Positions 25,515-64,000 of a stretch of 64,000 nucleotides of DNA are shown here, piece by piece; within the stretch, counting starts at the first letter, position 1, and every line of letters begins with the position of its first letter. The DNA comes from Candidatus Omnitrophota bacterium (GTDB lineage: Bacteria; Omnitrophota; Gorgyraeia; Gygaellales; Profunditerraquicolaceae): the NCBI GenBank assembly GCA_041650295.1, contig JBAZLM010000005.1, forward strand, positions 36,592 through 100,591, in the 5' to 3' direction. A program made the translations under genes and the position numbers. Under the pieces are notes generated by a model. The model saw nothing but the letters and a program-made list of their open reading frames with translations. It was not told the origin of the DNA and searched no databases.

Positions 25515-25515
25515 T

Positions 25516-26847: not shown

Positions 26848-26853
26848 ACTTTT

Positions 26854-28776
26854 ATGTTAAAATTTAAAATTACATTTTTACCTGATAATAAAACTATTTC
26901 TGTAGAAAAAGGCACTACTATTCTTTCTGCAGCAATCTCAGCTGGTGTTTACATTAATTCTAACTGCGGCGGTGACGGAATTTGCGGGAGATGTAAAGTT
27001 ATCATTAAAGGTGAGGTTACTAGTCAACCCAATGGAATAATTACACCTATTGAACGCAAAAATAATATTTATTTAGCATGTCTTACTAATGTACAAGGAG
27101 ACTTAGAAGTTTATATTCCGGATAGCTCAAGACTTAATTTCGATAAACTTACTCCTGAGGAGTTAGAAGAGCGACTAAACGGTTTATATTCAAAAGCTGA
27201 GGATATAGCCACGGTCAAAACAAAAACCGAAGATAAATTTTTTAAACATTCACCTTTTGCTACAAAAATTTATTTAGAGTTACCGAAACCAACGCTTAAT
27301 GACAGCATTAGTGATTTAGAAAGACTTTACCGAGCTTTGTCCCAATATCAAGAATTTCCAGCGATACAAACCGGATTATTTAATATTCGACAACTGGGAG
27401 AATTATTACGTGATTATGATTGGAAAGTTACCGTAACTTTGGGCAGACGTAACGATACTGTAGAAATTGTACTGATTGAACCAGGAGATACTAGTGCTAA
27501 AAATTTTGGACTTTGTTTTGATATCGGCACCACCACAATTTCCGGCCAATTAATTGATTTAAATTCAAAGAAAGTTTTGGGAACCAAAGCTACTTATAAT
27601 CAACAAGCGGCTTTTGGTAGTGATGTAATTACTCGCATTGTGCATGCTTCAAAAGCTAAAGGACTAGAACAATTACACAATGCCGTTTGCGATACTATGA
27701 ATCAAATTATTAAAGATTTAGTACTTGAACACCAAGTTGACTTAAACACGGTTAATTGCATTGTTTGCTCAGGAAACACCACGATGATGCATCTGCTTTT
27801 AAATATGGATCCGGCTCACATCCGTAAAGAGCCTTATATCCCAACAGCAAATTTTTTACCCGTAGTACGCGCCAGCGAAGCCGGAATTCGAATTAACCCC
27901 AGAGGATTACTCTATTGTGTACCAGGAGTCTCAAGCTACGTTGGAGGCGATACTACCGCCGGAGTTTTATCTAGTGGAGTATATCAAAAAGATAAACCTT
28001 GCATCTTAATCGACATCGGAACCAACGGAGAGATTGTTTTAGGAAACAAGGAATTTTTAGTCGGTTGTGCCGCTTCTGCCGGACCGGCTTTTGAAGGAAG
28101 CGGAGTAACCAGCGGAATGCGCGCGGCAAGTGGCGCAATTCAAAAAGTACGCATTAATAAAAAAGATTTTAATATTACCTATTCTGTAATTCAAGATAAA
28201 AAACCTAAAGGAATTTGCGGATCCGGATACATTGACTTACTCAGCGAAATGCTAGATGCCGGAGTAATTGATAAAAGCGGAAAAATAAAAATTGAAGGCA
28301 AGCGCATTCGCACAACTGATAATGGGAAAGAATTTATTGTTTGCTTTAAAGAAGAGACTGAAACTGACCGCGATATCGTAATTAACGAAGCTGACATCGA
28401 AAATCTAAAACGCTCCAAAGGAGCAATTTATTCAGCAACTTCAATTTTAGTTAACCACCTGGGGCTAGATTATTCCGCCGTGCATAAATTTTACATCGCC
28501 GGAGGGTTCGGTACTTATCTAGATATCGAAAAAGCCATTAGAATAGGCTTGCTGCCTGATTTAGAGCGTTCTAAATTTATTTTTATCGGTAACAGCTCAC
28601 TAGCTGGTTCAAGAGAGATACTTTTATCCAGTCAAGCCATGGAGATGGCTAATTTACTAGCGACTAAAATTACTTATTTTGAATTATCTAATGAACCAGC
28701 TTATATGGAAGAGTATAGTCAGGCTTTATTTTTTCCACATACGGATTTAACCAAATTTCCAACGGTGAGGTTTTAA
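26854..28776 (+). CDS. reductive activator of corrinoid Fe-S protein (RACo; 2Fe-2S ferredoxin + ASKHA ATPase)
   Basis: 640 aa. N-terminal plant-type ferredoxin cysteines NCGGDGICGRCKV. C-terminal ASKHA-fold ATPase motifs (FDIGTTT, IDIGTNGEI). Confidence 0.75.
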   Translation: MLKFKITFLPDNKTISVEKGTTILSAAISAGVYINSNCGGDGICGRCKVIIKGEVTSQPNGIITPIERKNNIYLACLTNVQGDLEVYIPDSSRLNFDKLTPEELEERLNGLYSKAEDIATVKTKTEDKFFKHSPFATKIYLELPKPTLNDSISDLERLYRALSQYQEFPAIQTGLFNIRQLGELLRDYDWKVTVTLGRRNDTVEIVLIEPGDTSAKNFGLCFDIGTTTISGQLIDLNSKKVLGTKATYNQQAAFGSDVITRIVHASKAKGLEQLHNAVCDTMNQIIKDLVLEHQVDLNTVNCIVCSGNTTMMHLLLNMDPAHIRKEPYIPTANFLPVVRASEAGIRINPRGLLYCVPGVSSYVGGDTTAGVLSSGVYQKDKPCILIDIGTNGEIVLGNKEFLVGCAASAGPAFEGSGVTSGMRAASGAIQKVRINKKDFNITYSVIQDKKPKGICGSGYIDLLSEMLDAGVIDKSGKIKIEGKRIRTTDNGKEFIVCFKEETETDRDIVINEADIENLKRSKGAIYSATSILVNHLGLDYSAVHKFYIAGGFGTYLDIEKAIRIGLLPDLERSKFIFIGNSSLAGSREILLSSQAMEMANLLATKITYFELSNEPAYMEEYSQALFFPHTDLTKFPTVRF

Positions 28777-48300: not shown

Positions 48301-51300
48301 TGCTAAATATTTTGCGGATGATCCGAGAAAAACATATTTGGCCTTGCGTAATTGGCAGAAAGAATTTAAGCAGCTTTTAGGGCAGGATAAAACATTAGAG
48401 CAGCTCACTACTTTTAAAGACGATCAGCATCCGGCCGGCACAGAGTACTTCTTATTAACTGATGAGCAAGGCAAATTTTTAAAGGACATTCAGGGTAATT
48501 ATATCATCCGTCCGCGCGATCTTTGCCATCAGGACGGGTCCTATCATCGCAGCGTTTTGATCGCCGCTATTGATTATCAGGGTAAATTTTTAAGGCAACA
48601 GCGTTCACAAACCAAGAGAATGTTTAAGCATTATTATGATCTTTCAGCCTGCGGGCATACTGCTTTGGATGCGGATTTGACAGGGGCGGCCCAAAGAGAG
48701 CTGGAAGAGGAGATATTCAATGATGAACATAAGATTGATTTAGCACGCTTAATTCAAATTACCCCGGATGCTTCGGTGCAGCATGATTTTATTTATACTG
48801 ATGAAAATGGTAGAAAATATATTGATAATGAGCGGTCGACGCTTTTTGTTTATTTTATGACCGAGGAAGAAAAGTTAAAGATTAAGTATCAGGTATCGGA
48901 GGTTGATCCTAAGGGCTGTAAATGGCTATGGTTTAAAAAAGAGGCGAATCGATATCGGGCTCATCCGGATAAATATGCAGCTGGCTTTAAAAGAGTGGTA
49001 GATAACCAGGATTTATATATAAAATTAACTAGTGTTGCAACGAGTGTTTATGGTGAAAATTATGCAGCAATTGCTGAAAAATTTGATGCCGAAACTTTTA
49101 AAGCTTTATATAAATTGACACATGAAGATCTCGACAATAAGGCCATGCAAGAAATTATGAATATAATTATAAGTAATTATCAGGAGCAAGGAATGATAGA
49201 CCGACTTTTTGGGATTGATTTATTAAATCCAGTAATGCAGCCGCTCGATTTTAATGATTTTAAGCGCCAGGAAGAAAACACTAGGTTTGTAGCTGACCGA
49301 GTGTTTCAGCTCACGGATTCTCATGATAAGTTATCAGTATTTAGTAGAGATAGATTACTTGATATGATTTGGGATGCCTTAAGGATAATTTATCTTTGGA
49401 TGCCCTTGTCTATATTTAAAAGATTTTATAACAATCAAGCGGTAGTGTCTGGACATGCTATCATGCATACTTTGGATGTTTTGGATGAGTGTTTTAGAAT
49501 TCAGAATGAACAGAAATATTTTTTATGGGAAGAAGATATCAAAAATTTAATTTTTGCCTCCTTGACTCATGATTTAAGTTATCTTATATATCAAGAAGGA
49601 CACTATCATTTTTCTTCAATTTGGGCAAGTGCTATTCTGGAGAAGAATAAAAAATATAATAAACATGCAGGAGACTGGACTTTTGGGACGCATAATAATA
49701 GATATGATGAAATTAAAGTGGGGGATATTATTAAGTTACATGATAAGGCAAAAGAGTACAATCTATACGATAATAATCAAGCAGCGGCGATTCTTCGGGA
49801 TGCTGATAAGTTAACTGCTGATTTAGATCCGCAGAGAATATATGATGCTAAGTGGTCAAATATATTGGAAAAGAACGGTTATACGCTAGAAAGGCCGGTA
49901 CCTTTTACAGAAATATTTTTTAATCCTCAAGAAGATCTTGATCATCGGGTAAAGGTGATAATCGATAATCTTCCGTATGATAGAAGTGATGCGGTTACAG
50001 ATCTTTTCCGTAAGATTATATACGATCGCAAGCAAGGTGGTGGATATTTGACCCGAGGGGGATCAGATATAATAAGCACTGCGGCTAATGATTTAAGTGT
50101 ATTGGTTGATTTTATTATAGATAAAGCGCAGGATTTGGAAGAAAAATATGGGTTTGGATTAGAAAGAATAGAACAAATTAAAGGAATTTTTTATGAACTT
50201 TATCATGTTATTTTTAATCAATGTTTTACTGAATCCCTGATTAATATAAATACAACTCGGGAAAATGAAATTTATTCACAAGAATTTAATTTGTTTAAAA
50301 GCAATCTAATCAACCGTATTTTAGAATTTAATCGAAGAATGCAAGAACCGTTGTTCTATGATAATGATGAAGATATTAATATGATTTTTTACGTATGGGA
50401 GTCTCAAGAGAGTCTTAACGCCGTTAAGTTTCTTGGGTCAATGGCAAAGGAAGGTTATTTAAACCGTGGCGAGATTGAATTAATTAAGGAGAATATAAAA
50501 ATTGCTTATGGACCAAACAAGCAAGTTCCTTCTGATTTTTTCCCGCTATACGATCAAATTTTTGATTTGTTTACTGTTGATTATGATACTGTTTTAGGTT
50601 ATTTTAACGATGTTGAACAAAATTTAGATACTACTTCAGGCCTTCGTAGTCAATTACAGGATTATTTAAATATTTCAGGGCAAGATAATAATCCTTTAGA
50701 CCGCTCAGCTAGAGGTAAGAGTAAAAGAAAAGTTAATGCGGCTATTAATGAATTTGGCGGGATAGAAAAAATACTGCAAGAGGGGACGTTGGATGTTGGC
50801 CTTTTCCAAAAGATTAATTCAGGTATTGATTGTACAGCAAAAAGTTTGGGAAAGACCGGTGAAGAGATTGAAAGATTATTGATGTCTAGGGGTGTGCATT
50901 TTGCGCAGGCGCCTCCGGGATGGGAAATCGGTCCAGCGATTGGTATTTTGAATCGCGATGAGAAAAAAGAGCTGGTAATTATTGTCCCCAAAGATGTGGA
51001 CATCGAAGATCTTGCCCATGAAATCCGCGCGGCAATTCTCCCCGGTTTAACCCATCAAGAAAATTTAAATATACAGGCAGTTAAAGAAATCCAACTCGAG
51101 CCGGTTTTTATTTCAGCAAATAAGCAAGCGCTTTCTTCTGAAGTAGCTTCAAATAAAGATTTTTTTGTACTGGTATTTAATTGCGGCAGCTCTTCAATTA
51201 AATACCAGTTTATTAATATGCAGGATGAATCAGTGGTGAAAAAAGGGACGATTAATATGATTGGCGAAAGCGATGGCCCGGCGAATTATTTAGAAGTAAT

Positions 51301-54300
51301 TAAGAATATTTTGGCGGATTTGTCTAGCTCCGGGTTGACTCCTTCGGCGATCGGTCATCGTGTAGTGCATGGTGGGGATAAATTTGAGGCATCAGTTTTA
51401 ATTAATGCCGATGTTAAGGCGGCGATTAAGGATTGTTTTAAGCTTGCCCCGCTGCATAATCCTGCGCATCTTATGGGCATCGAGGCTTGTGAAGAGCTGC
51501 TCCCGGGCATTCCGCAGGTTGCAGTTTTTGATACCGCTTTTCATAGCACTTTGCCTGCAGAAGCTTATTTATATGCTCTTCCTAAAGAGTATTACACTAA
51601 GTTTGGTATTAGGAAATATGGTTTTCATGGCACCAGCTATCGGTATGTCGCTAGTGCTGCGGCCAAACAATTAGGCATTCAGCCGGAAGATTTGAATGCG
51701 GTGATCTGCCATTTGGGTAATGGATGTTCAGTGGCAAAAATAAAAGCGGGAAAATCCGTGGATACGAGCATGGGGCTTACTCCTTTAGAGGGATTAGCCA
51801 TGGGCACGCGCTCCGGGGATATTGATGCCTCTGTGTTGGAGTTTATCGCTAATGAAACCGGAAAGAATATCGAAGAGCTGATGGCAATGTTAAATAAGGA
51901 TAGCGGATTATTAGGCATTTCCGGAGTAAGTAATAATATGATTAAATTACATGAAGCATTGGGAATAATTTCTCCGCGCCGGCCAAAGGAGATTAAAGAT
52001 GGAATTTCTAAAGTTGAGTTTTGGGCGGCGCAAGATGAAGATTTAATCAAAAAATATACTGCTTTAGCGCTTAAGGTTTTTACTTATCGCGTCGCCGGTT
52101 ATATCGGCAAGTATTATTGCGGCTTGCCGGCGGAGAGCGCTAAAATTATCTTTACGGCGGGCATTGGTGAGAATGCCGGTATGATTCGGCAAATGATTTT
52201 AGATCAGCTTCCGGGAATTGCGAATTTAGAGCAGCGGGTAATGGTGATTCCTACGGATGAGGAGCTGATGATTGCTCGAGATACGCAGGAGATTATTGAA
52301 AATATCCGGAATAATTCTATTTTGGCGCACAAGGGTTTTTTTGTTAAAGAGCAAGTTGGAGCACTGGTTAAAGTTTTAGGTTCTAGTACAACAAATGATA
52401 GTCAATTGGATGTAGATAATTTTATTATGAATATTTCGCAGTATGGCGCAATGACTACGGGTAAATGGTTAGGTCACCGGGAAAAAGTCGCGCAGGTAGT
52501 CAATGGTGAATTTTATAATGTTGTTCCGGTTACTATGCAGTTAGCACCTACTACAATTTGCCAATATAATTGTCCTACTTGTAGTTACGGTCGATCAAAA
52601 GAGGAGATCAGGAGTGCACTAAAATCAAAGACTGCCAATAAAAAAGATTTTTTTATGAGCATGGAAGATATGAAATTATATTTGGATCGCATTAAAGAAG
52701 CAGGAATAAAAGGTGTTATCTTCACTGGAGGTGGCGAACCGTTATTGAATCCTTACACGATAGATGGACTGGAGTATGCTAAGTCTTTAGGTTTACAGGT
52801 AGCCATGTTTACGGATGGCTACTTACTTACTCCGGAAACTGCTCAACGGATTATGAAAATTGGTTTAGTATTTTTACGCATTAGTTTTAACGCAGGAACG
52901 CCGGTTACCTATAAGCATTTTCACGGCACGACGGAAGATGCTTTTTATCGTGCAATTAAAAATATAGAGAATATAGCTGTGGCTAAAGAAATAACAAAGA
53001 GCCAAACCTCATTTGGGATTGGCGTTATCATTACTCCGTTAAATATTAAGGATCTTTTACATATTGCCAAGATTGTTAAGTCAATTGAAGAGCGCCATCC
53101 GGGAATGATTGAATTTATAGCTTATCGGCCGACCGTTCGTTATGAGCGTGGCTGTCAAAGAACCTTATTTACAAAGCAGGCGGTTGAATATATGCGCCAG
53201 ACTCCGGAATTAAGCCGTTATTATCAGGCGTATTATGATTTTATTTACAATGGAAAACAGTTCCCGGCTTCATTATTTCAAGAAGCGGTTACGATATTAG
53301 ATAACGAAGTTAAGCCATATTTGGAAAGTGGAGAATATCCGGTTAAGCTATTAACACCAAAAGGACGTATTGAAGGAGTTTACCAGACCGAAAAGCCTTT
53401 TTCGAAATGCTTAGCTTGTCCTTGGTGTAGTTTTATCGGACCGGAAGGCAATGTCTATCATTGTGTCGAGTTAGCGGTTGATTCTAGAACGATTTATGGC
53501 AACCTTAAAAAACAAACATTTAAAGAAATATGGGAAAGTCAGCAGAGAAAAGATGTCATTGAGCGGGTTAATGTTGAAGGGATGAAGTCTTTCTGTCCTC
53601 CAGTATGTTTATTATTTGAATATAATAAAATATTTGAAGATATTCAGCAGGGGTTAACTAATCCGGTGGTTCGGGAAAGATTGATTAAGGAAATTGAACG
53701 ATTTAGAGTTAGATTTGAACAGGAAGATTTGCCCATAGTCGGTAAAGGAGTAGATTTTATGTACCCGGCGAGGATGCCAGTAGCTAATGAGGAAGATCGG
53801 GAGCCGAGTAAGGCGGAATTAAGAATAATCCGCCGAGCCTTTGGCGGCAAGAGATATTATGAGAAAATTACTGGTAAAAAATTCAAGGATTTGGTAATTG
53901 TCCTTTATGCAGATTCAGATGTGGTGACCGAAGTTACTCCATCCGGAGCATTGTTAATTAACCCGAATCTTTTGCGCGGCCCGCCGAAACAGTTAAAAAT
54001 AATCTTCCAAAATCATGAATTATTTCATTTGCAGAATCCGAATATTGCTGAAGAGTTAGCCCACGCTTATACTATTCAATATTTATTAAAAAAAGGTTTA
54101 TTACAACGCCACCTATCCTTCTTAAAAAATAATAAAATTGGTTTAAAGCCGAATCGAGATTGGTTGTTAGAGTTAGAATTAGAAGATGTATTAATAAAAG
54201 TGATATCTTCTAAAGCTTCTCCTGCGCAGCAGGTAGCGATGATTGTTGAAAGAGCAGTTAATTTATTTAATCCAGATATAGTTTTTCAATGTATAGATGC

Positions 54301-57300
54301 CAGCCGTTGGATTAATTCTGGTTTGGATAAATTAGGTATCGTAAATTCACGCCGGGTAATTCATCTTAGCAAGGACATTACTCGAGAGCCGAAGATTGGC
54401 GAAAAAACCGAATATCACGATATTATTGAAGCGGTTTTTGAGGGCCAAATCTGGGTCATTGATACCCAAGCAAGACAATTTACGCAACAAACTAATAGTA
54501 GAATTCATGGTTTGTCTTTGGAGTTTGCTAATAAGTATATTTACAGCGCCAAAGATTATTATTCTATGCTTAAAGCGTTCTGGCTTGCTATGTCGGTTTT
54601 CCAAATTTCAGAAGCTTTGATTGATTCCACTGCTACCTCCCAAGGAATTGCGCCAGATTTAAAGAAAGCTTACTCAATTAAAAGTTCACGCATAAATTTT
54701 AAAAATTTATTAAGATTTTTAAGGGGAGCTGTTCAGCATAAAATAGGCCAAGGTATTATTTTGCATAACTTTGTGCCGTTTCCGATATTAGCTTTGGCAG
54801 TTTGGCCGGCAATAGCCGATTTTGTTGCAGCGCATCCGATATTAATGGGAGTAGGTATTTTATTAACTGGTGTTTGTTTAGCTTTGGTTTTATGGCGTAA
54901 ATTATTTCCGGTGAATTGGTATTCGCGAAGATTGAAAAGTTCGTTGGCTGAAGTTCGTGTTGAGGCAGCTATTGCTTTAGGAAAAACTAAAAATCATAAA
55001 GCCGTTAAGCCACTATTGGTGACGATCTATGATCATCATCTTTTAGTGCGCGACGCGGCGGTTGGCGCTTTGGGTCAGCTTAAAGATAGTCAAGCCATTG
55101 AGCCATTAATTGAATTATTTAGGATTTCAGATGATTATCGTAAAACGCTTATCATTAAAGCTCTTAGTGAAATAAGCGGTGAAAAAGTGTCAGTGGATAG
55201 CCTTGGCGCGGTGGTGGGTAGTAAGTTCGGTGAGCAGGAAGCAATTAAGATGAGTCAGGCGCTGCCTCTAGAACCAGTCGCTTCACCGCTTAGATTTGGC
55301 ACCAGTGGCTGGCGCAGTAGTAGATATACAGATTTTGTCATGCCCAATGTTCGACGTATATTAGAAGGAATTGCTTTGTATCACGATAGGGTGCTTAAGA
55401 AAGGAACATTTTTAATTGGTTATGATCCTAGAGCCGAAAATCAAAGTTTTGCTAAAGAAGCAGCGAGTATCTTTGCGGCACATGGTATTAAAACGCAAAT
55501 TATAATTAGTGATCCAACTCCTACTCCGGTTTTAGGATACTTAGCTGGTTCTAATGATGAGATTGCTGGAATTATCATTTTTTCCGCTAGCCATAACCCT
55601 GCCGAATATAATGGTATAAAATTTTATCAATATCACGGCGGTTCGGCGGATGTTGAAACTACGGATGTTATTTCAGAATTAGCCAATGCCGCCATAACCT
55701 ATAGGATAATGGATTATCAACAAGCTAAAGTAGAAGGCTTAATTACTGAAATTACTTTAGGTCAAGTAATTCAAAAATATGTTTTTGAATATATTATTCC
55801 TAGAGTTAAAGAAATCGGCGCTTGGAATGATATCGTAAATTATATCAAAAATAATCCGGAATTTGTGTTGGTGGTTGATCCGATGCAGGGTGCGGCGGTA
55901 GAATACTTAAAAGCAATTTATTTGCAGCTAGCCAAAGAAGCCGGTCGGGACTTCTTTATATTAATTCATACCAATAATCATGATCCAGAATTTTTAGAAG
56001 TAAATAGCGCGCCTAATCCGACATTGCCAGAAAATATAACTGAACTAATTAGTAAGGTATCCTTCGGCAAACAGGTTTTTGGTTTAGCGGTAGACGGGGA
56101 TGCGGATAGATTTAGAGTGATTGATTTTGGTGGCAAAGTTATTGAGGCTTCAGATGTAATTGCTATTTTAGCGCATTTTTTAAATACAGAGATTGGCTTG
56201 ACTGGTGTGATTGGAAAAAGTGTAGCCACATCTAATTTTGTCAATGCTATTGCTAAATATTTAAAATTAGATTTAGTGGAAGTTGGGGTAGGGTTTAAGA
56301 ATTTTGTGAATCAAGTAGTTAAAAATAAGGTTAATTTCTTAGTGGGCGGAGAAGAATCGGCCCATGTTTGTTTAGGGCTGTTGAATCAGTCTTGGGACGA
56401 TGGCATTGCTATAGGGCTATTGTGTTTTTGGGTAGTTGCGCGTACCGGCAAAACTATTTCTGGGTATAAAACTAGAATTGAAAAAGAAGTGGGGAAACAT
56501 TTTGACTCTGAAGTAATTACAATTTATGGCCAAGACGATTCGATTAAGGATGTAATTACTAATTTAATTCAAAAGACTGCAGAGGAACTAGAATCCGGAG
56601 TTCCGGCTTTAAAGACGACAATTGTAAAACAGGTCAGCAAGTTACAAAATAAGAAGGTAAAGGAATTAATTACTTTAGATGGCTTAAAAATTGTTTTTGC
56701 ATCCGACGATTGGATCCTTTTGCGACCTTCGGGAACTGAGCCAGCAGTTAGGCTTTATGTAGAAGTCACAGATTCATCTAAATTTGCTAGCTTGGTTAAG
56801 CTAGGTAGGGCTTTATTGGGAGTAGAAGAAGAGATTAGTCAAAATTTAAACCCGATTGCTTACCGCGGTTCTTTAACAGATGAAGAAAATTTGATTGCCC
56901 AAAGGTTAGCTAAAACAGCCGATCCTCTGACAGAAGGAGCAAGAGTGGCAGGGAGCTTAAGAGGGTATAAATCTGCAACTAGCATAATTTGCAATAATAT
57001 TAAAAATATTCATCTAGATGCTTATGGTAAGTTAGAATTAGAAGCTATTTTGAATAAATTTTCAATTTATTTTTATCAAACTGCTAATCGTTCGCCACCT
57101 AATGCGGTAACCGATGCTTTCAACCATCGTATTATCATTTTTGCTAATACAGAAGAGGAGCTCACCCATAAACTTTTGGTAAAAATTTTAATTCATGAAC
57201 TTGTCGAATATGAAATTCTCAATGACCCTCAGGTAACCACCGCTATTGCCCATCATCAAGCAGAGTTAGTTATAGATAGCTTAGATGATGTGGCGATTTT

Positions 57301-60300
57301 ATTCAACGATGAAGAATCGATATATTTTTCTAAAACAATCATTGATGCATTAAATAAGCTATTTTTAGAGCAAGATTTCTTAGATTATTATAATTTAATT
57401 TATCCGCAGAAGTTAGCTATCACTGGAGTAGATCATCAGCCCGGAAGAGATTTAGTAGATATTTTAATTGATACTACTTCTGGACAGCGTGAATTCAAGG
57501 TAGCTTTATATAAATCTGGCTATTCATTAGATAATAACATAGAAAATAGATATTTAAGGATAGCTAGTAGAATTGTCGGATTATATCAAAATTTTCTTTT
57601 GCAAAGAATAGATAATGAATTAGATGCTGTTGGGATTAAAACCGCAGATGTAATTGAACAAATTGAAGATTCATTTCGTCAAACTGTTTACGATCAAGAA
57701 TGGGAATCTTTAAGTGAGGGCTCAGATGCCAAAGTATATAAAAATCAGGATTCTTCATTAGTAATTAAGGCAGTAAAAGAAAGAAGTCTTAGTTATGATT
57801 ATTCTTATAATGTTAATCCTTTTATAAATTATCAATTAGCAAAACAATATTTAGGGCATTTAGCTGTACGTTTTTTAATCTTGGATAATTTGAAAATTAG
57901 ACTCCCAGATAAAGATGGGAATATTGAAGAAGTAATTATTGAAAGAGCGGTTGTGCAGAAATTTGTTAAAGTATTTTTTAAATTAGGAGTACATGACTAT
58001 ACAAAATATGAACATTGTACTGGTATTTTAGCCGATTTGATTAAAGAAGGAAAAATTGAAACGGCAAAATTTATAATTGGTGAATTTTTAAAAGGCGTGC
58101 GAGCAATTTTAGCCCGTGGATTATTTGATTGGGATATCAAAGCAGAGAATTATGGATATGATCCTTCGGTGGGTAAAGTAGCAACATTGGATATGGGTAA
58201 ATTATTGTTATATGATCAGGTTGTGCTTACTTCAGCAAAGGTATTTGTAAGAAATTTAAAAATTACCAGCGATGATATCTATGAATGGACTAAATTTGTT
58301 ATTAATCAAGAAGCGGCTCTTGAATTAAAGAATTATTTTGATACTTCAGTAAAAAAGGTTTTTTGGTTGGCCTATGATGAGGTGGGATTAGATATTACTA
58401 AAGATCTGAATGTTTTAGATAAAGAACATATGTTAGAAGACAGTGTGCGATATGATTTATGTTATGACAATTCAATAGGAAAGCCGGTTAATTATGCCGG
58501 TACTAGAGAAACTAGAGAAAGGGCTGCGCGGTTAATTTCTAAATATTTAAAAGACAATAATATAGATATTGATGCGGTGGAGATGGTTTTTGCTAAATTT
58601 GGTTTTGCCCAGCTTTGCCAAGAAACAGAAGTTTCTAAAATGTTATCCGATGGTTTTGTTTCTGATAATATTTTCTGTCTTGCTTTAGATGAAAATAGCA
58701 ATCCTTATTGCGGTATTAAAGCCAGAGAGCCCAAGAATTTTCCTACTGTTCAATATGTATTATATAACGATGAATATAAAGGCCAGCTTACTACTCGTCA
58801 AGACTCTGTTAATATTAAAAAAGCAGTAGTTAAAACATTGCTTCGATATTATGACTATCGTCAAGAAGTATATGATACTTTAGCAAAAAAATTTGCATTG
58901 GATAAAACTTTAAAAATTTGGAATTCTATGAACTTGAGGGAAGAATTTGAAAAAATAAAATACAATAATTTAAACGTTGATCAGAAGGATACCTTGAATT
59001 TATTATTAGGTATTTGTAAAGATGGTGATTTAGCTGGAAGGATGATCTTGGCTTTCGATGAGTTGGCAGAGACCAGAAGATATCCTTTTGGCATAGATTT
59101 GAATAAGATGTATTTGATTAAGTCCGAGAATGATTTTGCCGTTGAGGTCTTTGGGATGGGTACCTTTACTCGGAAAACCCAGGAAAAAGAGGTGCTCTTG
59201 CATATGCATCAAAATCTTAGCTTTTCTTACGAGGATATTTTGGAGGCGATTGTAGAAAGTAAAGATGAGATGGGTGCAACTATTTTTATTAGTAAGGTTT
59301 ATTTTCAGTGTAGTGCAATGGATAGCGAGCTTAAAGAAGTATTAATGAAAAAATTAAACCAGCTTCGTTCCTCTGATTATACTGGCGTATTTGATAGTGT
59401 TGTAAATGGTTTACCTAAGAATCATTTGCTTTGCTCAGCGAACAATTTAACTGATCAAAATAATGCCTATCCTTTACCGGTGCCGGAAGCGGTTCGCTCT
59501 GATATAAATAAAACATTTATTAATTCCACGGTAAATAATTTAGAAATACAGACTTCTCATATTCCGGTGAATGCTTATTTTGAGTCGCTGCAAAATATTT
59601 TAAGCGTTTTTAAAAAATGTTTTGGTCGCGCTCCCCCGAGATTAGGTCTCTGGCAATTGCTTGTTTCCACGGATTTAAGCTTAACGCGAGGCAAGGTTGC
59701 CGCCTGCGATATTAAATCCCGAACTGTTTATCTGCACACTTATTTTTTTCAACTTTCCCAAGCTAAACAATTAGAAATTCTTTATCATGAGCTCATTAGC
59801 CATATGCAAAAGGGTATCGCCGATGAAAATATTGCTCTGCGTGATACGAATGCTTTCTTTTGGCTACAACCCAATGCTCCCCAACTAGTCGGGAAAACGT
59901 TGATGACTTTATCGATGGAAGGTAATATTCCGGAATTTGCCGGATATCCGGATGCGCAGAATGCTTGTACTCGGGGTGGATTAGGTGCATATTTTGGCGA
60001 TAAGTTGGAAGGGTTGTTTGCGATTGGCTTGACTGCCTGGGGCGTTGAGCCGGCTTATGCTTATACTACTAGAGATGGAAAAGATATCGCCGTGGATTAT
60101 GCGCCATTATTTAATCAGGGCGTGATTAGTAAAGTTTTAGATAAAAATGGTGCTCCTTTAGTGTTACAAGTTTATGCTTGGGATGATCAATGCAAAAGTT
60201 CACTTTATAAGGATAAATCCATCGCGGTGGAAGTTTGGCTGGTTAACCGCGGAGGCACGCCGCTATATCTTTTATACTCACAGGAAGTATTTAATAATCT

Positions 60301-63300
60301 TTATACGGATAATCGTGCACATCGTTTTACTCAGGAGATAGTTTTTGGTAAAGCGGTTTATTGTTTAATGAAGACACTTAAAATTGTTCCGGATATTATG
60401 CATTTAAATGAGGCGCATACCGTAGTGGCTGCCGCGCAGGCTAGAGCGGACAATGATTTTAACAAAATGGTTATTGTTTATACCAATCACACATTAGTTC
60501 CGGCTGGACTGGAAATTTTTCATGCTTCCAATTTGGGCGTAGACTCTAACCGGATGATGTATCAAATTGGCGTGCCGGCGGAAGAAGAGTGCAAGTTTCG
60601 TTCATATTTTTTACGTGCGAACGGAATGGTAGATTTTTGTTCTGCAGCAGTGCATTTAGCCGATGTCATTAATGCGGTGAGCTTAGAGCATGCGGCGGCA
60701 ACACAGAGACTTTTCCGTTCGATGTATGGTGATGAATTCAAGACTAAAGTTGTGGGTGTACTTAATGGTTCAGGTAAAACTTGGATGAATGATTCATTAA
60801 GGGTAATTCAAGATCGTGGTCTAATGGCTAATCAGGAAGAGTTAAACTTAATTCATCAAAAGGGTAAAATAGAGGCTTTTGCAGAGATTGAAGCCAGAAC
60901 CCAGGTGCAATTAGATTTAAGCAAACCAACGATTTGGATGGTGCGTCGGATTGTAGATTATAAGAGCCAGTATCCGATGTTACGATTTTTATTACATATT
61001 TTGTGTGCTGATCGCAATATTAGCTATACGCGCGATCAACTGCAAACAGCTTGGTTTAGAGATATTCCGGATTTATTAACACAAGAGAATCGTAATTTAT
61101 CGCAAGAGGTGTTGAATTATATTTTTGCCCAAAAAGAAAGGGTTTTCGGTTTAGGATTTCAGGTAGTGGTGGGCGGTCCGGAGTATATGTCATTTTGGAT
61201 TGCTGAATTTAAACGTTGGTCGCTACTTCCTGAATTTAGAGGAAAATTTATTTATGTGCCAAATTCGGATGCCCGCTTGCTTAAGATGCAAGCCATTGGG
61301 GCGGATATTTGTATTAATATCCCTCGACCGTTAGAAGAGGCTTGCGGAACTTCTGATCAAAGAACTGGATTAAACGGTGGGGTTAATGTGGCTATCCGTG
61401 GCGCTGGTCCGGTAGAGTGGATCACCGATTATAATGAACAGAGTAAAGCGGGAAGTGGATTTTTATTAGAGTCATATACTAATACTGTAGATAATGAAGT
61501 TACTGCAGATAATTATTTATTTTATCGTAAGGCACCGGCCGATATTCTTTCTAAGTTAGAAGTAGCGCGTGGATTGTTTGATCTGCAAGATAAGTCTGCT
61601 TGGAAAAAATTGATGCACGATGCTTACCTTGACGCTAACGCTAAAGTGAGCGCTAAAGCGATGGAACAGCGTTATGCTTTAAATGTTTACCAACCTAAGG
61701 CGACAGATGAATTAAGAAAAAAAATAGCGCAAGCTAATGATTTCCCGCTTTCTGCGATGGAGATGATGGATGTGTTAGAGCTGGGAATTTGCCAGCAGGA
61801 TAAGCAATTGCTTTTTGATTTATTAGCCAGGGTAAAATCCACAATTTTTCCTGCCGCCACCGGGCGGATTATGAAAACGATGATGAAGATTTGCGACCGG
61901 TATGGGTATGAGATTACTCAAGCGCAGGCAGATATTTTGCTAAGTTTTGCGGATAATTTATATTTCCCGGAAGAAATCTGCGAATTTTTTACTAAAACAC
62001 AATGGCGTGGCTACGCTTTTAATTATTTAAATGAAAAATTCCAAAAAATTCATCCGGATGCAAGCATTAGTTACGCTCCGACGCGGCGAAGAAACTTGTT
62101 GTCAAGTTTAAGTATTTTAGCTAAAGACGCTGGCTTACTACAAGAAACTTTAGACCAAATATGGTTTAATTCAGCGGTTAGGTTTAGCCGAAGATATATT
62201 ACTTACGAACTTAGAGAAGGTAGAATTAGTGAAGTTAAAGATGAGGCGATAATTTTTATTTATCATAAAAATCCTAACGGCAAAATAAGTTATGAATCGA
62301 TTTATGCGCATGGAAAAGTTAGGCCTGATCATCGGACCTTGTCGCCAGGTCAGAAATATATGGGTAAAGTGTTTAAAGTCGGAGAAATTTATGAGGGGAT
62401 GCCGGCATTTGATTTCAATGGAGAAGAAATATTAAAAGATTGCGATGAGAATATCCTTTCTTTACGGGGGACATACACTGAGCTGGAAAGTGTAGTAGGG
62501 GGATTTGTAAGATTGGATCTGCCCAGACTTCCGGTAGAACAATTATTAAATGTTACCGGTGAAAAAGATCTAGATGCTTATATTTTTAGACAAATTGTGT
62601 CGGCAGCGAAATTTATGGCAGCCATTGTTAACCCGCAGAAAGAATTAGTCTTAGAAGCGTTGATCAAAGAGAGCTTAGAAAAAAGATTTAATCGCTCATT
62701 GCCTTTACGTTTTTCGATCGAAGATTTTAATCGTTGGGTAGCCGGGGAGCAAGTTTTAGGAATTCAGAATCAGCAAAAAATAGTTATTCCAAATTGCGCT
62801 GAACTTGAGTCGGTTTGTGTTTCTGACTCAGATGGAATACATCCTAGATTTGCATTAGCTTTAAGAGATATGCTTGATGAAAAATTTCCGGGGGTACAAG
62901 TAGTTTTAGAAAAAGCTGATGGAAGAATGGCTTTTGCCAGTGATGATCAGGAAATTACCAAGTTGGCTTGTACGCAGGGTGAAGTAATCTATGTATTTGC
63001 TTGGGGTGATAGTCATCGCCATGCTGCTGCGGCCTTGGATAGAGTTATTTCGTTAATTAATCCTAATGGACGTACTATTGGTCTTACTTTTGGTCACGGT
63101 CGAGGTCTGGTGATGAGAGCCGATGAAGTTTTAGCTGTGCAGCAAAGCGGAAAGACTATCCATCATCCTTTTCTGTTGGCGGGAAAAAATCCAGCTGATT
63201 TGGAGAATGTAATTTTGGAAATTTCTTCTTGGGGCGCATTACAGGGGGTGATGACGGTTAGCGGCGGTGAGTTTAACCATGTTGCGGTAAATTTTAGAGA

Positions 63301-64000
63301 TAATTATGTGTCGAACATTCCCTGGTTAAGCGGAGTGGATGCGGATTATATGCAAGGTCTTTTTGGCAAAGAAATAGAGTTAATCGTGGATAAAACTAAG
63401 CTGCCGATAATTAGAGTGGTTAGCGCGCAGGAAGATAATCGTTGGGTAAATTGTACGCTCAAAGCCCCTAACACCGATGACTTAATGCATCGATTTAATT
63501 GCGACATTACCTACATTGAGCAGGTAATTAAAAATGCTGAAGAGACCGCGGTGCCGGAAAGTTTCATTAATACGATTACCGATCAAGGATTCGACGATTT
63601 AATTAAAGCTATTCTGGGCCAACGCTCTCCGCATATTCGCTTGTTTGTGGTAAAAGCGCCTGCAATTGCTAATTTATTCGGTATTCCTCGTTACCAGAAT
63701 GCAGTTTTAGCACGCGACACGATTCCAGTTTATACTGTACCGGATAATGCTGGCAATCTTTGTTGTTACGTTACGCAGAATTTTTATGATTCGCTTTTGG
63801 TTGACCCGTGGTTATTTTGTTTTGCTCTAGATCATGAATTTTATGAAAAAGGTACGGTTCCTCACCGTGTGCATAAACAGGCCTGGCAAGATCGGGGAAG
63901 CTTAGAATGCTTTGCTGATCCGGCGACCGGAATTAATAAGTTCATAAAGCTTTATATTGATCGCTTATTTGCTGAAGGCGATATTGAAGGGTTAGACCGA
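33332..64000 (+). CDS. giant multidomain secreted/membrane protein, 5' complete and 3' end beyond the window (>=10,223 codons, >=30.7 kb)
   Basis: ATG at 33332 is preceded by in-frame TGA and by AAAGGAG 8 nt upstream. My hand translation of every codon to 64000 found no in-frame stop. Frame consistency (codon starts = 2 mod 3) was verified at embedded motifs: acetate kinase 51185, radical SAM 52559, PGM 55298, phosphorylase 61334. It is absent from the ORF track because no stop lies within the window. Signal peptide [29 protein letters not shown]. Confidence 0.85.
   Translation, partial: [10223 protein letters not shown]
49400..49850 (+). other. HD-domain phosphohydrolase-like region embedded in the giant ORF
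   Basis: [12 protein letters not shown] ... [13 protein letters not shown] ... HYHFSS ... [12 protein letters not shown]. The H...HD...H...D pattern defines the HD superfamily. Confidence 0.6.
51160..52310 (+). other. acetate/propionate kinase (AckA)-like domain embedded in the giant ORF
   Basis: [77 protein letters not shown], ...[12 protein letters not shown]. All acetate kinase signature segments are in order. An ~45-aa insertion precedes the C-terminal subdomain. Confidence 0.8.
52500..53650 (+). other. radical SAM domain with C-terminal SPASM-like cysteine cluster, embedded in the giant ORF
   Basis: CQYNCPTC (CX3CX2C), [11 protein letters not shown] glycine-rich SAM motif. Downstream CLACPWCSF...HCVEL...CPPVC resembles SPASM/twitch auxiliary-cluster cysteines. 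Confidence 0.7.
55280..56830 (+). other. alpha-D-phosphohexomutase (phosphoglucomutase/phosphomannomutase) domain embedded in the giant ORF
   Basis: RFGTSGWRS, active-site loop [13 protein letters not shown], metal loop AVDGDADRF, sugar-binding GGEESAH, phosphate-binding [15 protein letters not shown]. All four PGM/PMM loops are in canonical order. Confidence 0.8.
59880..61560 (+). other. GT35 alpha-glucan (glycogen/maltodextrin) phosphorylase-like domain embedded in the giant ORF
   Basis: [11 protein letters not shown] (cf. YSGGLGVLAGD), PLYLL, [20 protein letters not shown] (cf. HLNEGHAAF), [11 protein letters not shown] (cf. TTHTPVPAG), [28 protein letters not shown] (cf. EASGTSGMKAALNG...LDGWW). 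Confidence 0.7.

What the first reader, a model, noticed from the sequence alone, without database searches (positions are those of the whole stretch)
59880..61560. GT35 alpha-glucan phosphorylase-like module in the giant protein
The string of motifs GGLGAYFGD, PLYLL, HLNEAHTV, YTNHTLVPAG and EACGTSDQRTGLNGGVNVAIRGAGPVEW follows the GlgP/MalP short-form phosphorylase family. The PLP-Lys region (normally ...TSGMK...) reads TSDQRT, so the lysine that forms the Schiff base with PLP appears replaced. This would mean a catalytically dead, glucan-binding derivative.
Basis: partly seen in the sequence, partly recalled or inferred. Interest (0 to 1): 0.6.

Follow-up and report, generated by a model that had tools for sequence, protein, structure and literature searches.

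The report
Glycogen phosphorylase-like module lacking cofactor lysine
One segment of a giant (over 10,000 amino acids) Omnitrophota protein is a well-preserved glycogen-phosphorylase-type enzyme fold whose vitamin-B6-binding lysine is replaced by arginine; the same change defines a large uncharacterised bacterial clade, so it is more likely an altered enzyme than a dead one.

Summary
All five motifs sit in one + strand ORF of more than 10,223 aa (33332 to beyond 64000). The module (aa 8844-9455, nt 59861-61696) matches alpha-glucan family phosphorylases: TIGR02094 E 3e-37, AlphaFold pLDDT 94.8, and all top Foldseek hits are glycogen phosphorylases. Alignments to solved S. copri and E. coli enzymes place Arg9344 where the PLP lysine sits.

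The "dead derivative" reading is not supported. Lys->Arg defines a whole clade in Omnitrophota, Sedimentisphaerales, Elusimicrobiota and others. In an exhaustive profile search, 88 of the top 110 cluster representatives carry Arg and 1 carries Lys. Both Arg codon families are used (CGN 49, AGR 30).

The glucosyl- and phosphate-binding residues are kept in 26/26 giant-embedded copies. The residues around the cofactor site change in a conserved, coordinated way. Clade members are fused to debranching enzyme and GH13 domains, and sit beside phosphoglucomutase and true GlgA-type modules.

My best reading is a selected alpha-glucan enzyme that works without covalent PLP, probably a phosphorylase, tethered in a multi-enzyme chain. 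Activity is untested. Public annotation disagrees ("glycogen synthase" versus "glucan phosphorylase"). I found no description of a GT35 without the PLP lysine.

The parts
33332..64000 (+). Giant ORF of at least 10,223 aa that runs off the window end. It has an N-terminal signal or anchor-like segment, several predicted TM clusters, and a chain of enzyme modules: PRK/uridine kinase, NUDIX, acetate kinase, radical SAM+SPASM, HEAT, phosphoglucomutase, and the GT35-like module.
   Evidence: Stop-free frame; N-terminus; Pfam hits; hydropathy scan; LepA in the window is 100% identical to a Candidatus Omnitrophota MAG protein.
59861..61696 (+). GT35-like alpha-glucan phosphorylase-type module (aa 8844-9455): a complete GT-B fold of the Lys->Arg clade.
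   Evidence: TIGR02094 E 3.3e-37 over the whole profile; boundaries from tblastn to 20 other giant loci; AF2 pLDDT 94.8; Foldseek top hits are glycogen phosphorylases.
59975..59986 (+). GGLG glycine loop (aa 8882-8885), the phosphate-contacting loop of GT35/GT5. It is preceded by Arg8881, a basic residue typical of the clade (K/R in 53 of 62 members; A/S in Lys-type enzymes).
60401..60418 (+). HLNEAH (aa 9024-9029), equivalent to the LNDTH glucan-binding motif of glycogen phosphorylase. N, E and H are conserved in both clades.
   Evidence: The mapping to rabbit GP Asn338/Asp339/His341 is from my own knowledge of the family.
60479..60493 (+). YTNHT (aa 9050-9054). His9053 is the equivalent of S. 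copri GP His316 and rabbit GP His377.
   Evidence: Alignment; catalytic residues named in PMC12912991; His kept in 26/26 embedded, 22/22 stand-alone and 23/23 fused copies.
60944..60964 (+). RRIVDYK (aa 9205-9211), the substrate-phosphate-binding Arg-Arg...Tyr-Lys. It equals S. copri GP R507/R508/K513 and rabbit GP K568/R569/Y573/K574.
   Evidence: invariant in all 71 copies.
61265..61267 (+). Ser9312, at the position of the Tyr that is invariant in Lys-type phosphorylases (41/41) and that I equate with rabbit GP Tyr648. In the Arg clade this position is a small, variable residue (S/A/C/G).
   Evidence: (Ser aligned to Tyr of the PNYSVSLA stretch of 9uoe_A).
61337..61363 (+). EACGTSDQR (aa 9336-9344). 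Glu9336 and Thr9340 are kept. Arg9344 (AGA, nt 61361-61363) replaces the PLP Schiff-base Lys. Asp9342 and Gln9343 replace Gly and Met.
59459..59863 (+). Adapter domain of about 135 aa (aa 8710-8844) directly N-terminal to the module. It has a conserved H..F..Q..IL.HE...H signature and recurs in Omnitrophota giant proteins. No known family.
   Evidence: no Pfam hit.
55292..56794 (+). Phosphoglucomutase module (aa 7321-7821) with intact SASHNP, DGDADR, GGEES and RPSGTEP motifs. It is the likely metabolic partner (G1P <-> G6P).
   Evidence: Pfam PGM_PMM I-IV; motifs. PGM directly follows the GT35-like module in L014 and lies close after it in L026.

Best explanation
The segment is a complete, selectively maintained member of a previously uncharacterised sister clade of the short-form (TIGR02094-type, GT35) alpha-glucan phosphorylases. 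In this clade the PLP Schiff-base lysine is always arginine and the cofactor pocket has been remodelled, while the glucosyl site and the substrate-phosphate site are intact.

It most likely still acts catalytically on alpha-1,4-glucan (glycogen or maltodextrin) without covalently bound PLP. The most probable activity is a PLP-independent phosphorylase that releases glucose-1-phosphate.

In this Omnitrophota giant protein it is one cassette in a membrane-tethered chain of enzymes that probably faces the cytoplasm. It would work with the phosphoglucomutase module in the same chain (G1P <-> G6P).

What is shown:
- fold, family placement and Lys->Arg;
- clade-wide conservation;
- retention of the catalytic residues;
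- fusions with other glucan enzymes.

What is inferred:
- that it is catalytically active;
- the direction of the reaction (phosphorolysis);
- that Arg9344, together with the clade-specific basic residue before the GGLG loop (Arg8881), holds a free anion (a second phosphate) or otherwise replaces the PLP 5'-phosphate as acid/base helper;
- the cytoplasmic location.
For: Family and fold:
- TIGR02094 E 3.3e-37 over the full profile.
- A profile built only from Arg-clade sequences hits S. copri GP at 7.8e-51 and other glycogen phosphorylases (the 9v16/9ukq E. coli group) at about 1e-22, but glycogen synthases only at 1e-3.
- AF2 pLDDT 94.8. All listed Foldseek hits are phosphorylases.

Lys->Arg is clade-defining and under selection:
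- EACGTS..R in 72/72 close homologs, against ..K in 41/41 canonical ones.
- In the exhaustive HMMER search of 1.84 billion representatives, the top 110 hold 88 Arg, 1 Lys, 9 other residues and 12 fragments.
- Arg codons across 79 loci: CGN 49, AGR 30.
- Seven loci retrieved by a pattern that does not include this motif still carry Arg.

The active site is retained. Y135, R142, N170, E171, H197, N289, G290, R349, R350, Y354, K355, E480 and T484 (module numbering) are invariant in 26/26 giant-embedded, 22/22 stand-alone and 23/23 fused copies. These include the residues PMC12912991 names as contacting substrate or product in S. copri GP: H316, R507, R508 and K513.

The pattern of change fits altered function rather than decay. 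Of the positions at least 90% conserved in Lys-type enzymes, 54 are unchanged and 12 are conserved but different. The 12 include T->L, H->G, A->L, W->C, G->D, M->Q, K->R and W->G, most of them in the motifs flanking the cofactor lysine. Only 10 have become variable, including the Tyr648 equivalent. A further 25 positions are conserved only in the Arg clade.

Functional links to glycogen breakdown:
- Sedimentisphaerales proteins of about 1,550 aa combine the Arg-type module with GDE_C amylo-1,6-glucosidase (E 9e-94) and a GH13 domain.
- Arg-type module followed by GH13 in P0123, P0131, P0143, L022, L027 and L036.
- True GlgA-type modules (GT5+GT1, or GT5 N-domain hits) occur elsewhere in the same polypeptides: P0131, P0143, L022, L026. 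The Arg-type module is therefore not simply the synthase.
- PGM lies next to the module in L014 and L026, and about 1,000 aa upstream here.

Other modules of this giant protein look intact. PGM has all four signature motifs and acetate kinase scores E 4e-110.

Precedent for PLP-free phosphorolysis on a GT-B fold: the GT4 retaining trehalose phosphorylases (listed in PMC8950772; that they lack PLP is my own knowledge).

Possible rationale: the PLP biosynthesis module M00124 is reported missing or incomplete across Omnitrophota (PMC10066038).
Against: - Every characterised GT35 enzyme needs PLP, whose 5'-phosphate is the acid/base catalyst (PMC11046441). Arginine cannot form the Schiff base, and no new conserved lysine appears in the clade.
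- No biochemical data exist for any clade member.
- The Asp of TSDQR, a candidate replacement proton relay, is relaxed in giant-embedded copies (D in 16/26, otherwise G/V/C/H/S/T) against 43/45 elsewhere. Some embedded copies may therefore be less constrained.
- More distant non-Lys subfamilies of about 520 aa do show degraded catalytic residues, so pseudoenzymes occur in the wider radiation.
- Stand-alone homologs sit in uninformative, monocistronic contexts with no glycogen operon.
- I could not inspect model coordinates, so the position of Arg9344 relative to the phosphate site is not verified.
- The TIGR02094 and PF00343 scores are below their curated cut-offs.
Confidence: 0.5

Rival explanations
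1. Pseudoenzyme. The module has lost catalysis with the PLP lysine and serves as a glycogen- or maltodextrin-binding or scaffolding domain. It would hold the giant protein and its neighbouring enzymes on glucan particles.
For: PLP is essential in all characterised GT35 enzymes (PMC11046441). In this clade Lys->Arg, the Tyr648 equivalent is lost and DGW becomes SGG. The Asp of TSDQR is relaxed in embedded copies. Related non-Lys subfamilies show degraded catalytic residues. S. copri GP wraps around glycogen particles, so the fold can act as a glycogen binder (PMC12912991).
Against: A pure binder has no need to keep the substrate-phosphate residues (Arg-Arg...Tyr-Lys, the GGLG loop, Thr of EACGT) invariant in 71/71 copies. 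It would not need to fix Arg through both codon families, nor to evolve 12 conserved-but-different and 25 new conserved positions. Stand-alone single-domain members are widespread in free-living Sedimentisphaerales, often as two paralogs per MAG. Fusion to GDE_C and GH13 is the architecture of a working degradation machine.
Confidence: 0.25
2. Nucleotide-sugar-dependent (or otherwise donor-switched) glucan synthase or transferase. With PLP gone, the emptied pocket binds the nucleoside monophosphate part of ADP- or UDP-glucose, so the enzyme works like a Leloir glycogen synthase. It would be either a reversion or a relic of the proposed 'proto-GT35'. This is what the NCBI name 'glycogen/starch synthase' implies.
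For: The N-terminal half hits Pfam Glyco_transf_5 above threshold (E 1e-11), whereas Lys-type relatives do not list PF08323. Bulky pocket residues are replaced by small ones (Tyr->Ser/Ala, Trp->Gly, Trp->Cys), which would enlarge the cavity. A basic residue is gained next to GGLG, reminiscent of the KxGGL motif of GT5. PMC11046441 proposes that PLP replaced an NMP in an ancestral NDP-sugar enzyme. A UDPGP domain is encoded in the neighbouring 2,099-aa ORF.
Against: The Arg-clade profile is about 48 orders of magnitude closer to phosphorylases than to synthases, and all listed fold hits are phosphorylases. TIGR02095 glgA scores 46 bits against a cut-off of 328, and there is no Glycos_transf_1 hit. 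Genuine GT5+GT1 synthase modules coexist in the same polypeptides. The clade is fused to the catabolic debranching enzyme. The Tyr that stacks PLP, and by my reading corresponds to the adenine-stacking Tyr of GlgA, is lost rather than kept. Basal clade members still carry the phosphorylase-type GTSGM motif (GTSGMR), which suggests descent from a PLP enzyme.
Confidence: 0.15
3. Conventional phosphorylase chemistry with non-covalently bound PLP (or another B6 vitamer or phospho-cofactor) held by the arginine instead of a Schiff base.
For: Thr9340, the GGLG loop and Arg9205, which correspond to the contacts of the PLP 5'-phosphate in GP (my knowledge), are all retained. Arg could pair with a phosphate or a phenolate.
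Against: The ring-stacking Tyr and two Trp residues that are invariant in Lys-type enzymes are replaced. A negatively charged Asp is introduced two residues before the Arg. The Omnitrophota PLP synthesis module M00124 is reported incomplete.
Confidence: 0.08

Closest known systems
Short-form / 'clade 2'-type alpha-glucan family phosphorylases (NCBIfam TIGR02094; e.g. Segatella copri glycogen phosphorylase, PDB 9L6I, PMC12912991)
   Same: Closest by sequence (E 2.6e-19 for the single sequence, 7.8e-51 for the clade profile) and by fold (Foldseek E 1e-29, TM 0.72). Shares the GGLG loop, H.NE.H, TNHT, NG...W, RR..YK and EACGTS motifs, including the S. copri GP residues H316, R507, R508 and K513.
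   Different: The PLP lysine (S. copri GP Lys609) is Arg. GM->DQ. The invariant Tyr of (E/P)(D/N)YD becomes a small residue. DGW->SGG. YKR->YKS. TNGIH->LNGSG. The module lacks the N-terminal DUF3417 domain and the C-terminal beta-sheet domain of the 850-aa forms. The score is below the TIGR02094 trusted cut-off.
Classical GT35 glycogen/maltodextrin phosphorylases (rabbit muscle GP, E. coli GlgP and MalP)
   Same: Same GT-B fold and the same catalytic constellation: equivalents of His377, Asn484, Arg569, Lys574, Glu672 and Thr676 (rabbit numbering is from my own knowledge).
   Different: No equivalent of Lys680 or Tyr648. About 200 residues shorter, with no tower helix or regulatory N-terminus. 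It is embedded in a protein of more than 10,000 aa.
GT5 bacterial glycogen/starch synthase (GlgA), which is the name NCBI gives to clade members
   Same: GT-B fold. The N-terminal half passes the PF08323 threshold. GGLG loop preceded by a basic residue. The Arg...Lys phosphate pair is shared by both families.
   Different: The glgA models score far below cut-off (46 against 328 bits). No Glycos_transf_1 C-domain hit. The clade profile matches synthase structures only at E 1e-3. True GlgA-type modules occur separately in the same giant proteins.
GT4 retaining trehalose phosphorylases (fungal TreP)
   Same: The only known GT-B-fold glycoside phosphorylases outside GT35 (PMC8950772). They show that an SNi-like phosphorolysis on this fold does not need PLP (absence of PLP is my own knowledge). 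This is a model for how the module could work.
   Different: A different family and a different substrate (trehalose). No detectable specific sequence relationship here.
Omnitrophota giant multi-enzyme proteins ('Archaeovorins', bioRxiv 10.1101/2023.11.21.568195; giant-protein classes in bioRxiv 10.64898/2026.06.07.730766)
   Same: A giant ORF in an Omnitrophota genome with TM segments, repeats and sugar-metabolism modules. Those papers report 'GT5 / starch synthase catalytic (PF08323)' domains as among the commonest, co-occurring with PGM and radical SAM. That is the Pfam signature this module gives.
   Different: In the passages my term searches returned from those papers, the domain is treated as glycogen-synthase-like. 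Here it is shown to be GT35-type with the PLP lysine replaced. The module order is not collinear between species.

Membership tests
GT35 alpha-glucan phosphorylase (TIGR02094 / PF00343) | GT-B two-Rossmann fold with phosphorylase topology | tested here: met
   AF2 pLDDT 94.8, pTM 0.93. The 50 listed Foldseek PDB hits are all glycogen, maltodextrin or alpha-glucan phosphorylases, best E 1.3e-29.
GT35 alpha-glucan phosphorylase (TIGR02094 / PF00343) | Profile score at the curated family threshold | tested here: not met
   TIGR02094 scores 128.5 bits against a cut-off of 191.7, although E is 3.3e-37 with full-length coverage. PF00343 scores 15.4 bits against 27.
GT35 alpha-glucan phosphorylase (TIGR02094 / PF00343) | Glucosyl- and phosphate-binding catalytic residues (His377, Asn484, Arg569, Lys574, Glu672, Thr676, GGLG loop; S. 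copri GP H316/R507/R508/K513) | tested here: met
   His9053, Asn9145, Arg9205/9206, Lys9211, Glu9336, Thr9340 and GGLG 8882-8885 are present here and invariant in 71 clade copies.
GT35 alpha-glucan phosphorylase (TIGR02094 / PF00343) | Lysine forming the Schiff base with PLP (rabbit Lys680, S. copri GP Lys609) | tested here: not met
   Arg9344 is aligned to that lysine in two solved phosphorylases. Arg is found in 72/72 close homologs. No compensating conserved Lys appears.
GT35 alpha-glucan phosphorylase (TIGR02094 / PF00343) | Conserved aromatic residues of the PLP pocket (the Tyr I equate with rabbit Tyr648; the Trp of DGW in short forms) | tested here: not met
   Tyr (41/41 in Lys-type) becomes Ser9312 (S/A/C/G across the clade). 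Trp (41/41) becomes Gly9359.
GT35 alpha-glucan phosphorylase (TIGR02094 / PF00343) | Phosphorolysis of alpha-1,4-glucan to glucose-1-phosphate | not testable with these tools
   Needs an enzyme assay. The only indirect support is the fusions with GDE_C and GH13 and the adjacency to PGM.
GT5 glycogen/starch synthase (GlgA) | Full GlgA architecture: Glyco_transf_5 N-domain plus Glycos_transf_1 C-domain, at the glgA model threshold | tested here: not met
   Only PF08323 positions 69-226 of 239 match (45.5 bits). There is no PF00534 hit. TIGR02095 scores 46.2 bits against 328. The clade profile matches synthase structures at E 1e-3, against 8e-51 for phosphorylase.
GT5 glycogen/starch synthase (GlgA) | KxGGL motif lysine that binds the NDP-sugar | tested here: inconclusive
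   The clade has K/R immediately before GGLG (53/62 members; Arg8881 here). This is offset by one residue from the GT5 pattern (the GT5 motif is from my own knowledge).
Omnitrophota giant multi-enzyme proteins ('Archaeovorin'-like) | ORF over 20 kb in an Omnitrophota genome, with TM segments and many enzyme or repeat modules including PF08323 and PGM | tested here: met
   ORF of at least 30.7 kb. LepA is 100% identical to an Omnitrophota MAG protein. Modules. TM scan. Papers. I did not test the specific criteria of the named 'Archaeovorin' class.

The most novel reading that the evidence does not exclude
The Lys->Arg clade, including this module, consists of the first alpha-glucan phosphorylases of the GT35 lineage that work without pyridoxal phosphate. 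Protein side chains (Arg9344, the basic residue before GGLG, Asp9342) and/or a second free phosphate would replace the cofactor's 5'-phosphate. This could be an adaptation of anaerobic, B6-poor lineages such as Omnitrophota. Alternatively, the clade has switched back to nucleotide-sugar donors, giving a living model of the proposed PLP-for-nucleotide exchange at the origin of GT35.
Probability: 0.45. Interest if true: 0.8.

Novelty: new variant of a known kind. Interest (0 to 1): 0.62.

Why it matters
Dependence on covalently bound PLP is treated as a defining property of glycogen, starch and maltodextrin phosphorylases (GT35).

A large, conserved clade keeps the whole substrate site but replaces the cofactor lysine with arginine. 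If active, it would show a second chemical solution for alpha-glucan phosphorolysis on this fold. That bears on the long-standing question of how PLP entered a family whose GT-B relatives use nucleotide sugars. It would also offer cofactor-free phosphorylases for glucan or G1P synthesis.

There are practical consequences as well. These proteins are currently named 'glycogen/starch synthase' by NCBI and 'glucan phosphorylase' by JGI. They have been counted as GT5 domains in surveys of Omnitrophota giant proteins. Metabolic reconstructions of Omnitrophota, Sedimentisphaerales and Elusimicrobiota may therefore misassign glycogen synthesis and degradation.

For the giant proteins themselves, intact catalytic modules next to one another (PGM, acetate kinase, this module) support the idea of a membrane-tethered multi-enzyme assembly rather than a string of relics.

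Tried and rejected
- **Gene neighbourhood of stand-alone homologs (P0001, P0023, P0049).** They are monocistronic with unrelated housekeeping neighbours and no glycogen operon, so this was uninformative.
- **Collinearity with other giant genes.** Rejected. Only the module and the adapter are shared; flanking modules differ between species. The region downstream of the module (aa 9456-10223) is conserved only in L011, and not next to the module there.
- **Private decay or sequencing error at the AGA codon.** Rejected on clade-wide invariance and codon usage.
- **A compensating lysine elsewhere.** None is gained among the clade-specific conserved positions.
- **Adapter and internal repeats A/B/C against Pfam.** No hits. 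A protein database search with the adapter found a single fragment.
- **HPr-like stretch downstream.** Only sub-threshold support (Pfam E 0.0028; PDB HPr hits E about 0.5). A PEP-utilizer-like motif seen by eye (SGGEFNHVAVNFRD) got no profile support.
- **Literature searches for a PLP-independent or lysine-less GT35.** Nothing found in the searchable library. This is absence in that library, not proof of absence.
- **Caveats on my own analyses.** The NJ tree is a rough BLOSUM62-distance tree without support values, and I use it only for the qualitative branching of the GTSGMR forms. The genome scan used patterns that include EACGTS[DG][QM]R, so its Arg counts are partly circular. The pattern-free searches (and 69-72) are the unbiased evidence.

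Full report
**What is there.** The window carries one stop-free + strand frame from nt 33332 to the window end, at least 10,223 aa. It begins with a signal- or anchor-like N-terminus. No ORF of 80 aa or more lies on the opposite strand under them. LepA, encoded at the start of the window, is 100% identical to a protein of a 'Candidatus Omnitrophota bacterium' MAG, and its next 100 or more relatives that carry a name are nearly all labelled Omnitrophota/Omnitrophica. The window is therefore Omnitrophota chromosome. Other genes present are GatA/B, CtpA, TsaD, CdhD and RACo.

**Family placement.**
- The 900-aa stretch around the finding matches NCBIfam TIGR02094 ('alpha-glucan family phosphorylase') at E 3.3e-37 over profile positions 19-600 of 600. 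The score of 128.5 bits is below the curated cut-off of 191.7.
- Pfam gives Glyco_transf_5 (PF08323) for part of the N-terminal half at E 1e-11. Its GT35 model PF00343 reaches only a sub-threshold E of 0.0057.
- The best solved relative is Segatella copri glycogen phosphorylase 9L6I (E 2.6e-19).
- An AlphaFold2 model built on 55 homologs is confident (pLDDT 94.8, pTM 0.93). The 50 Foldseek PDB hits listed are all phosphorylases: S. copri GP at E 1e-29, then E. coli GlgP, MalP, and plant and mammalian enzymes.
- A profile built only from the module's own clade hits phosphorylase structures at 7.8e-51 to 1e-8 and glycogen synthases at 1e-3.

The module is thus GT35-type, not GT5-type. Alignments to 20 other giant loci and the TIGR02094 match put its limits at aa 8844-9455, nt 59861-61696.

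**The lysine.** In the HMMER alignment with S. copri GP...EASGTSGEKAEMNG pairs with ...EACGTSDQRTGLNG. Counting residues in that alignment gives Lys609 opposite Arg9344 and reproduces Arg583. Both are named in the structural paper, Lys609 as the PLP site (PMC12912991). The alignment with 9uoe_A, which I take to be E. coli GlgP (EASGTSNMK), gives the same answer and places Ser9312 opposite the Tyr of PNYSVSLA. The codon is AGA at nt 61361-61363.

**It is not a private defect.**
- A search of 5.8 billion proteins found a distinct group of 78 clusters (E 1e-224 to 1e-35), well separated from canonical short-form phosphorylases (E about 1e-17).
- Every one of the 72 members that contain the motif reads EACGTS..R, mostly EACGTSDQR. 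All 41 canonical relatives read EACGTSGMK or GQK.
- Most are stand-alone proteins of 610-800 aa from Sedimentisphaerales/Planctomycetota, Omnitrophota and Elusimicrobiota. NCBI names them 'glycogen/starch synthase' and JGI names them 'glucan/starch/glycogen phosphorylase'.
- An exhaustive hmmsearch of 1.84 billion cluster representatives with the clade profile gave 607 hits at E<=1e-30. Among the best 110 representatives the residue at this position is Arg in 88, Lys in 1 and another residue in 9; 12 are fragments without the motif. Among the best 150 it is Arg 98, Lys 24, other 14, fragments 14. Twenty of the 150 proteins are 2,000-7,858 aa long.
- A scan of GTDB species genomes returned 113 relatives, of which the best 80 loci were kept. 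In 26 Omnitrophota loci the module lies in a frame that runs through the whole fetched locus, that is, in a giant gene. 22 are stand-alone and 23 are mid-size fusions.
- That scan used the motif as one of its patterns, so its Arg counts are partly circular. Even so, seven loci recovered only through the second pattern (YK.Q...) also have Arg.
- Across 79 loci the Arg is encoded by CGN 49 times and AGR 30 times, which indicates long-term selection for arginine.

**State of the active site.**
- In 26 embedded, 22 stand-alone and 23 fused copies the following are invariant (module numbering): Tyr135, Arg142, Asn170, Glu171, His197, Asn289, Gly290, Arg349, Arg350, Tyr354, Lys355, Glu480 and Thr484.
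- These include the equivalents of S. copri GP His316, Arg507, Arg508 and Lys513, the residues the structural paper reports as contacting substrate or product.
- I compared 62 full-length clade members with 41 Lys-type enzymes at the positions at least 90% conserved in the Lys-type. Of these, 54 are unchanged and 12 are conserved but different: A->D, W->F, T->L, H->G, G->W, A->L, W->C, G->D, M->Q, K->R, W->G and F->V. Only 10 have become variable, among them the invariant Tyr that I equate with rabbit Tyr648. A further 25 positions are conserved only in the Arg clade.
- The clade also gains a basic residue directly before the GGLG loop (K 35, R 18 of 62; Arg8881 here), where Lys-type enzymes have Ala or Ser.
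- No new conserved lysine appears.

This is the signature of a remodelled, still constrained site. It is not the scattershot loss expected of a pseudoenzyme. There are two caveats. The Asp of TSDQR is less constrained in embedded copies (D in 16/26) than elsewhere (43/45). More distant non-Lys subfamilies of about 520 aa do show eroded catalytic residues.

**Functional context.**
- Stand-alone homologs have uninformative neighbourhoods.
- The fusions are informative. Sedimentisphaerales proteins of about 1,550 aa join the Arg-type module to GDE_C amylo-alpha-1,6-glucosidase (E 9e-94) and a GH13 domain (E 3e-14).
- Omnitrophota and other multidomain proteins place GH13 after the module: L027, L036, L022, P0123, P0131 and P0143.
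- In P0131, P0143, L022 and L026 a genuine GlgA-type module (GT5+GT1 in the two proteins, GT5 N-domain hits in the two loci) occurs elsewhere in the same polypeptide. The Arg-type module is therefore not simply 'the synthase'.
- PGM follows the module directly in L014 and closely in L026. In the window protein it lies about 1,000 aa upstream and has all four PGM signature motifs.
- The other modules in this protein are PRK/uridine kinase, NUDIX, acetate kinase (E 4e-110), radical SAM+SPASM and HEAT.
- A crude hydropathy scan finds TM clusters up to aa 7190. The radical SAM module, and the fact that the last TM element is a two-helix hairpin, lead me to infer that the PGM and GT35-like modules face the cytoplasm. 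This is inference.
- Giant genes of other species are not collinear. The module behaves as a cassette, often preceded by a 135-aa adapter with a conserved HE...H signature.

**Evolution.** In a rough neighbour-joining tree the Arg clade is monophyletic with respect to Lys-type short forms. Members that still read GTSGMR branch near its base. Most embedded Omnitrophota modules form one group with a stand-alone sequence (L018) nested inside, and a second, GTSGMR-type pair of embedded modules lies elsewhere. This suggests the order GMK -> GMR -> DQR and at least two captures into giant genes. The tree has no support values.

**Mechanism.** In GT35 the PLP 5'-phosphate is the acid/base that activates the substrate phosphate (PMC11046441). 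Without the Schiff-base lysine, and with the stacking Tyr gone, covalent PLP is excluded and non-covalent PLP is unlikely. Because the glucosyl and phosphate sites are intact and fixed, I favour a PLP-independent glucosyl transfer.
- Phosphorolysis is the most likely reaction, given the debranching-enzyme fusions, the co-occurring true synthase modules and the PGM partnership. Arg9344 plus Arg/Lys8881 could position a second anion or otherwise take over the role of the cofactor phosphate. This step is inference.
- GT4 trehalose phosphorylases show that GT-B phosphorolysis without PLP is chemically feasible (absence of PLP is my own knowledge).
- A switch to nucleotide-sugar donors is the main active-enzyme alternative. 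It connects to the proposal that PLP replaced a nucleoside monophosphate in a proto-GT35.
- The pseudoenzyme reading remains possible, at about 0.25.
- A possible selective rationale is that the PLP biosynthesis module M00124 is reported missing or incomplete across Omnitrophota (PMC10066038).

**Comparison with the literature.** Two preprints on Omnitrophota giant proteins list 'GT5 / starch synthase catalytic (PF08323)' domains among the commonest, together with PGM and radical SAM. That is the Pfam signature of this module. Some of those domains are therefore probably this GT35-type, lysine-less module. Reviews of alpha-glucan enzymes and of glycoside phosphorylases describe GT35 as PLP-dependent and mention no exception. 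My searches for a PLP-independent or lysine-less GT35 found nothing, within the limits of the searchable library.

**Verdict.** The module is a new member of an uncharacterised variant of a known family, and that variant challenges the assumed universality of PLP in GT35. Whether it is active is the open question, and it can be tested directly.

Noticed in passing
window 59459-59863 (+), aa 8710-8844 of the giant protein: Adapter domain of about 135 aa directly upstream of the GT35-like module, with a conserved H..F..Q..IL.HE...H signature. It recurs 21 times in the fetched Omnitrophota giant loci, often right before the module. It has no Pfam family. It could be a metal-binding or processing domain, in line with the proposed self-cleavage of giant proteins.
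   Followed up: partly
window 42308-42703 and 53762-54163 (+), aa 2993-3124 and 6811-6944: Internal repeat 'A' (37-39% identical) carrying a classical HExxH motif (HELLH / HELFH). Each copy is followed downstream by a predicted two-helix TM hairpin: aa 3153-3195 (about 30 aa after the first copy) and aa 7147-7190 (about 200 aa after the second).
   Followed up: partly
window 43451-43834, 47309-47689, 50690-51067 (repeat B); 47657-48178 and 56786-57286 (repeat C): Two further families of internal repeats (45-51% and 37-40% identity) that lie between enzyme modules like spacers. No Pfam match.
   Followed up: partly
window 62810-63049 (+), aa 9827-9906: HPr-like stretch ('DGIHPRFALAL...') about 370 aa after the phosphorylase-like module. 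Pfam PTS-HPr gives E 0.0028 (below cut-off) and three PDB HPr chains match at E about 0.5-0.7. E. coli glycogen phosphorylase is regulated by HPr (PDB 9s8k), but this adjacency is not conserved in other giant genes.
   Followed up: partly
window 10965-17261 (+): A 2,099-aa ORF that combines glutamate dehydrogenase domains with a UTP-glucose-1-phosphate uridylyltransferase (UDPGP) hit. This is another unusual multi-enzyme fusion, upstream of the giant gene.
   Followed up: no
window 44087-56794 (+): The giant protein strings together PRK/uridine kinase, NUDIX, acetate kinase (E 4e-110), radical SAM+SPASM, HEAT repeats and a phosphoglucomutase with all four catalytic signature motifs intact. The first 3,500 aa have no Pfam hit at all.
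   Followed up: partly
window about 44000 (inside the giant ORF): GC skew jumps from about 0.06 to 0.2-0.32 and stays high to the window end. This roughly coincides with the change from the TM-rich, domain-less N-terminal third to the enzyme-module part of the same ORF.
   Followed up: no
L047:9932-14575 (also L052, L053, L054, L057, L059): Sedimentisphaerales encode proteins of about 1,550 aa that fuse the Lys->Arg phosphorylase-like domain to GDE_C amylo-1,6-glucosidase and a GH13 domain. Several MAGs carry both a stand-alone copy and a fused copy.
   Followed up: partly
P0170, P0171, P0173, P0176, P0182, P0196, P0215, P0226: More distant phosphorylase-like subfamilies, many about 520 aa long, have neither Lys nor Arg at the cofactor position (D, G, C, L, I, M). 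They also show eroded catalytic motifs and are candidate true pseudoenzymes.
   Followed up: partly
window 25501-28773 (+): CO dehydrogenase/acetyl-CoA synthase delta subunit (CdhD) and the RACo corrinoid activase lie next to each other, indicating Wood-Ljungdahl pathway genes in this Omnitrophota genome.
   Followed up: no
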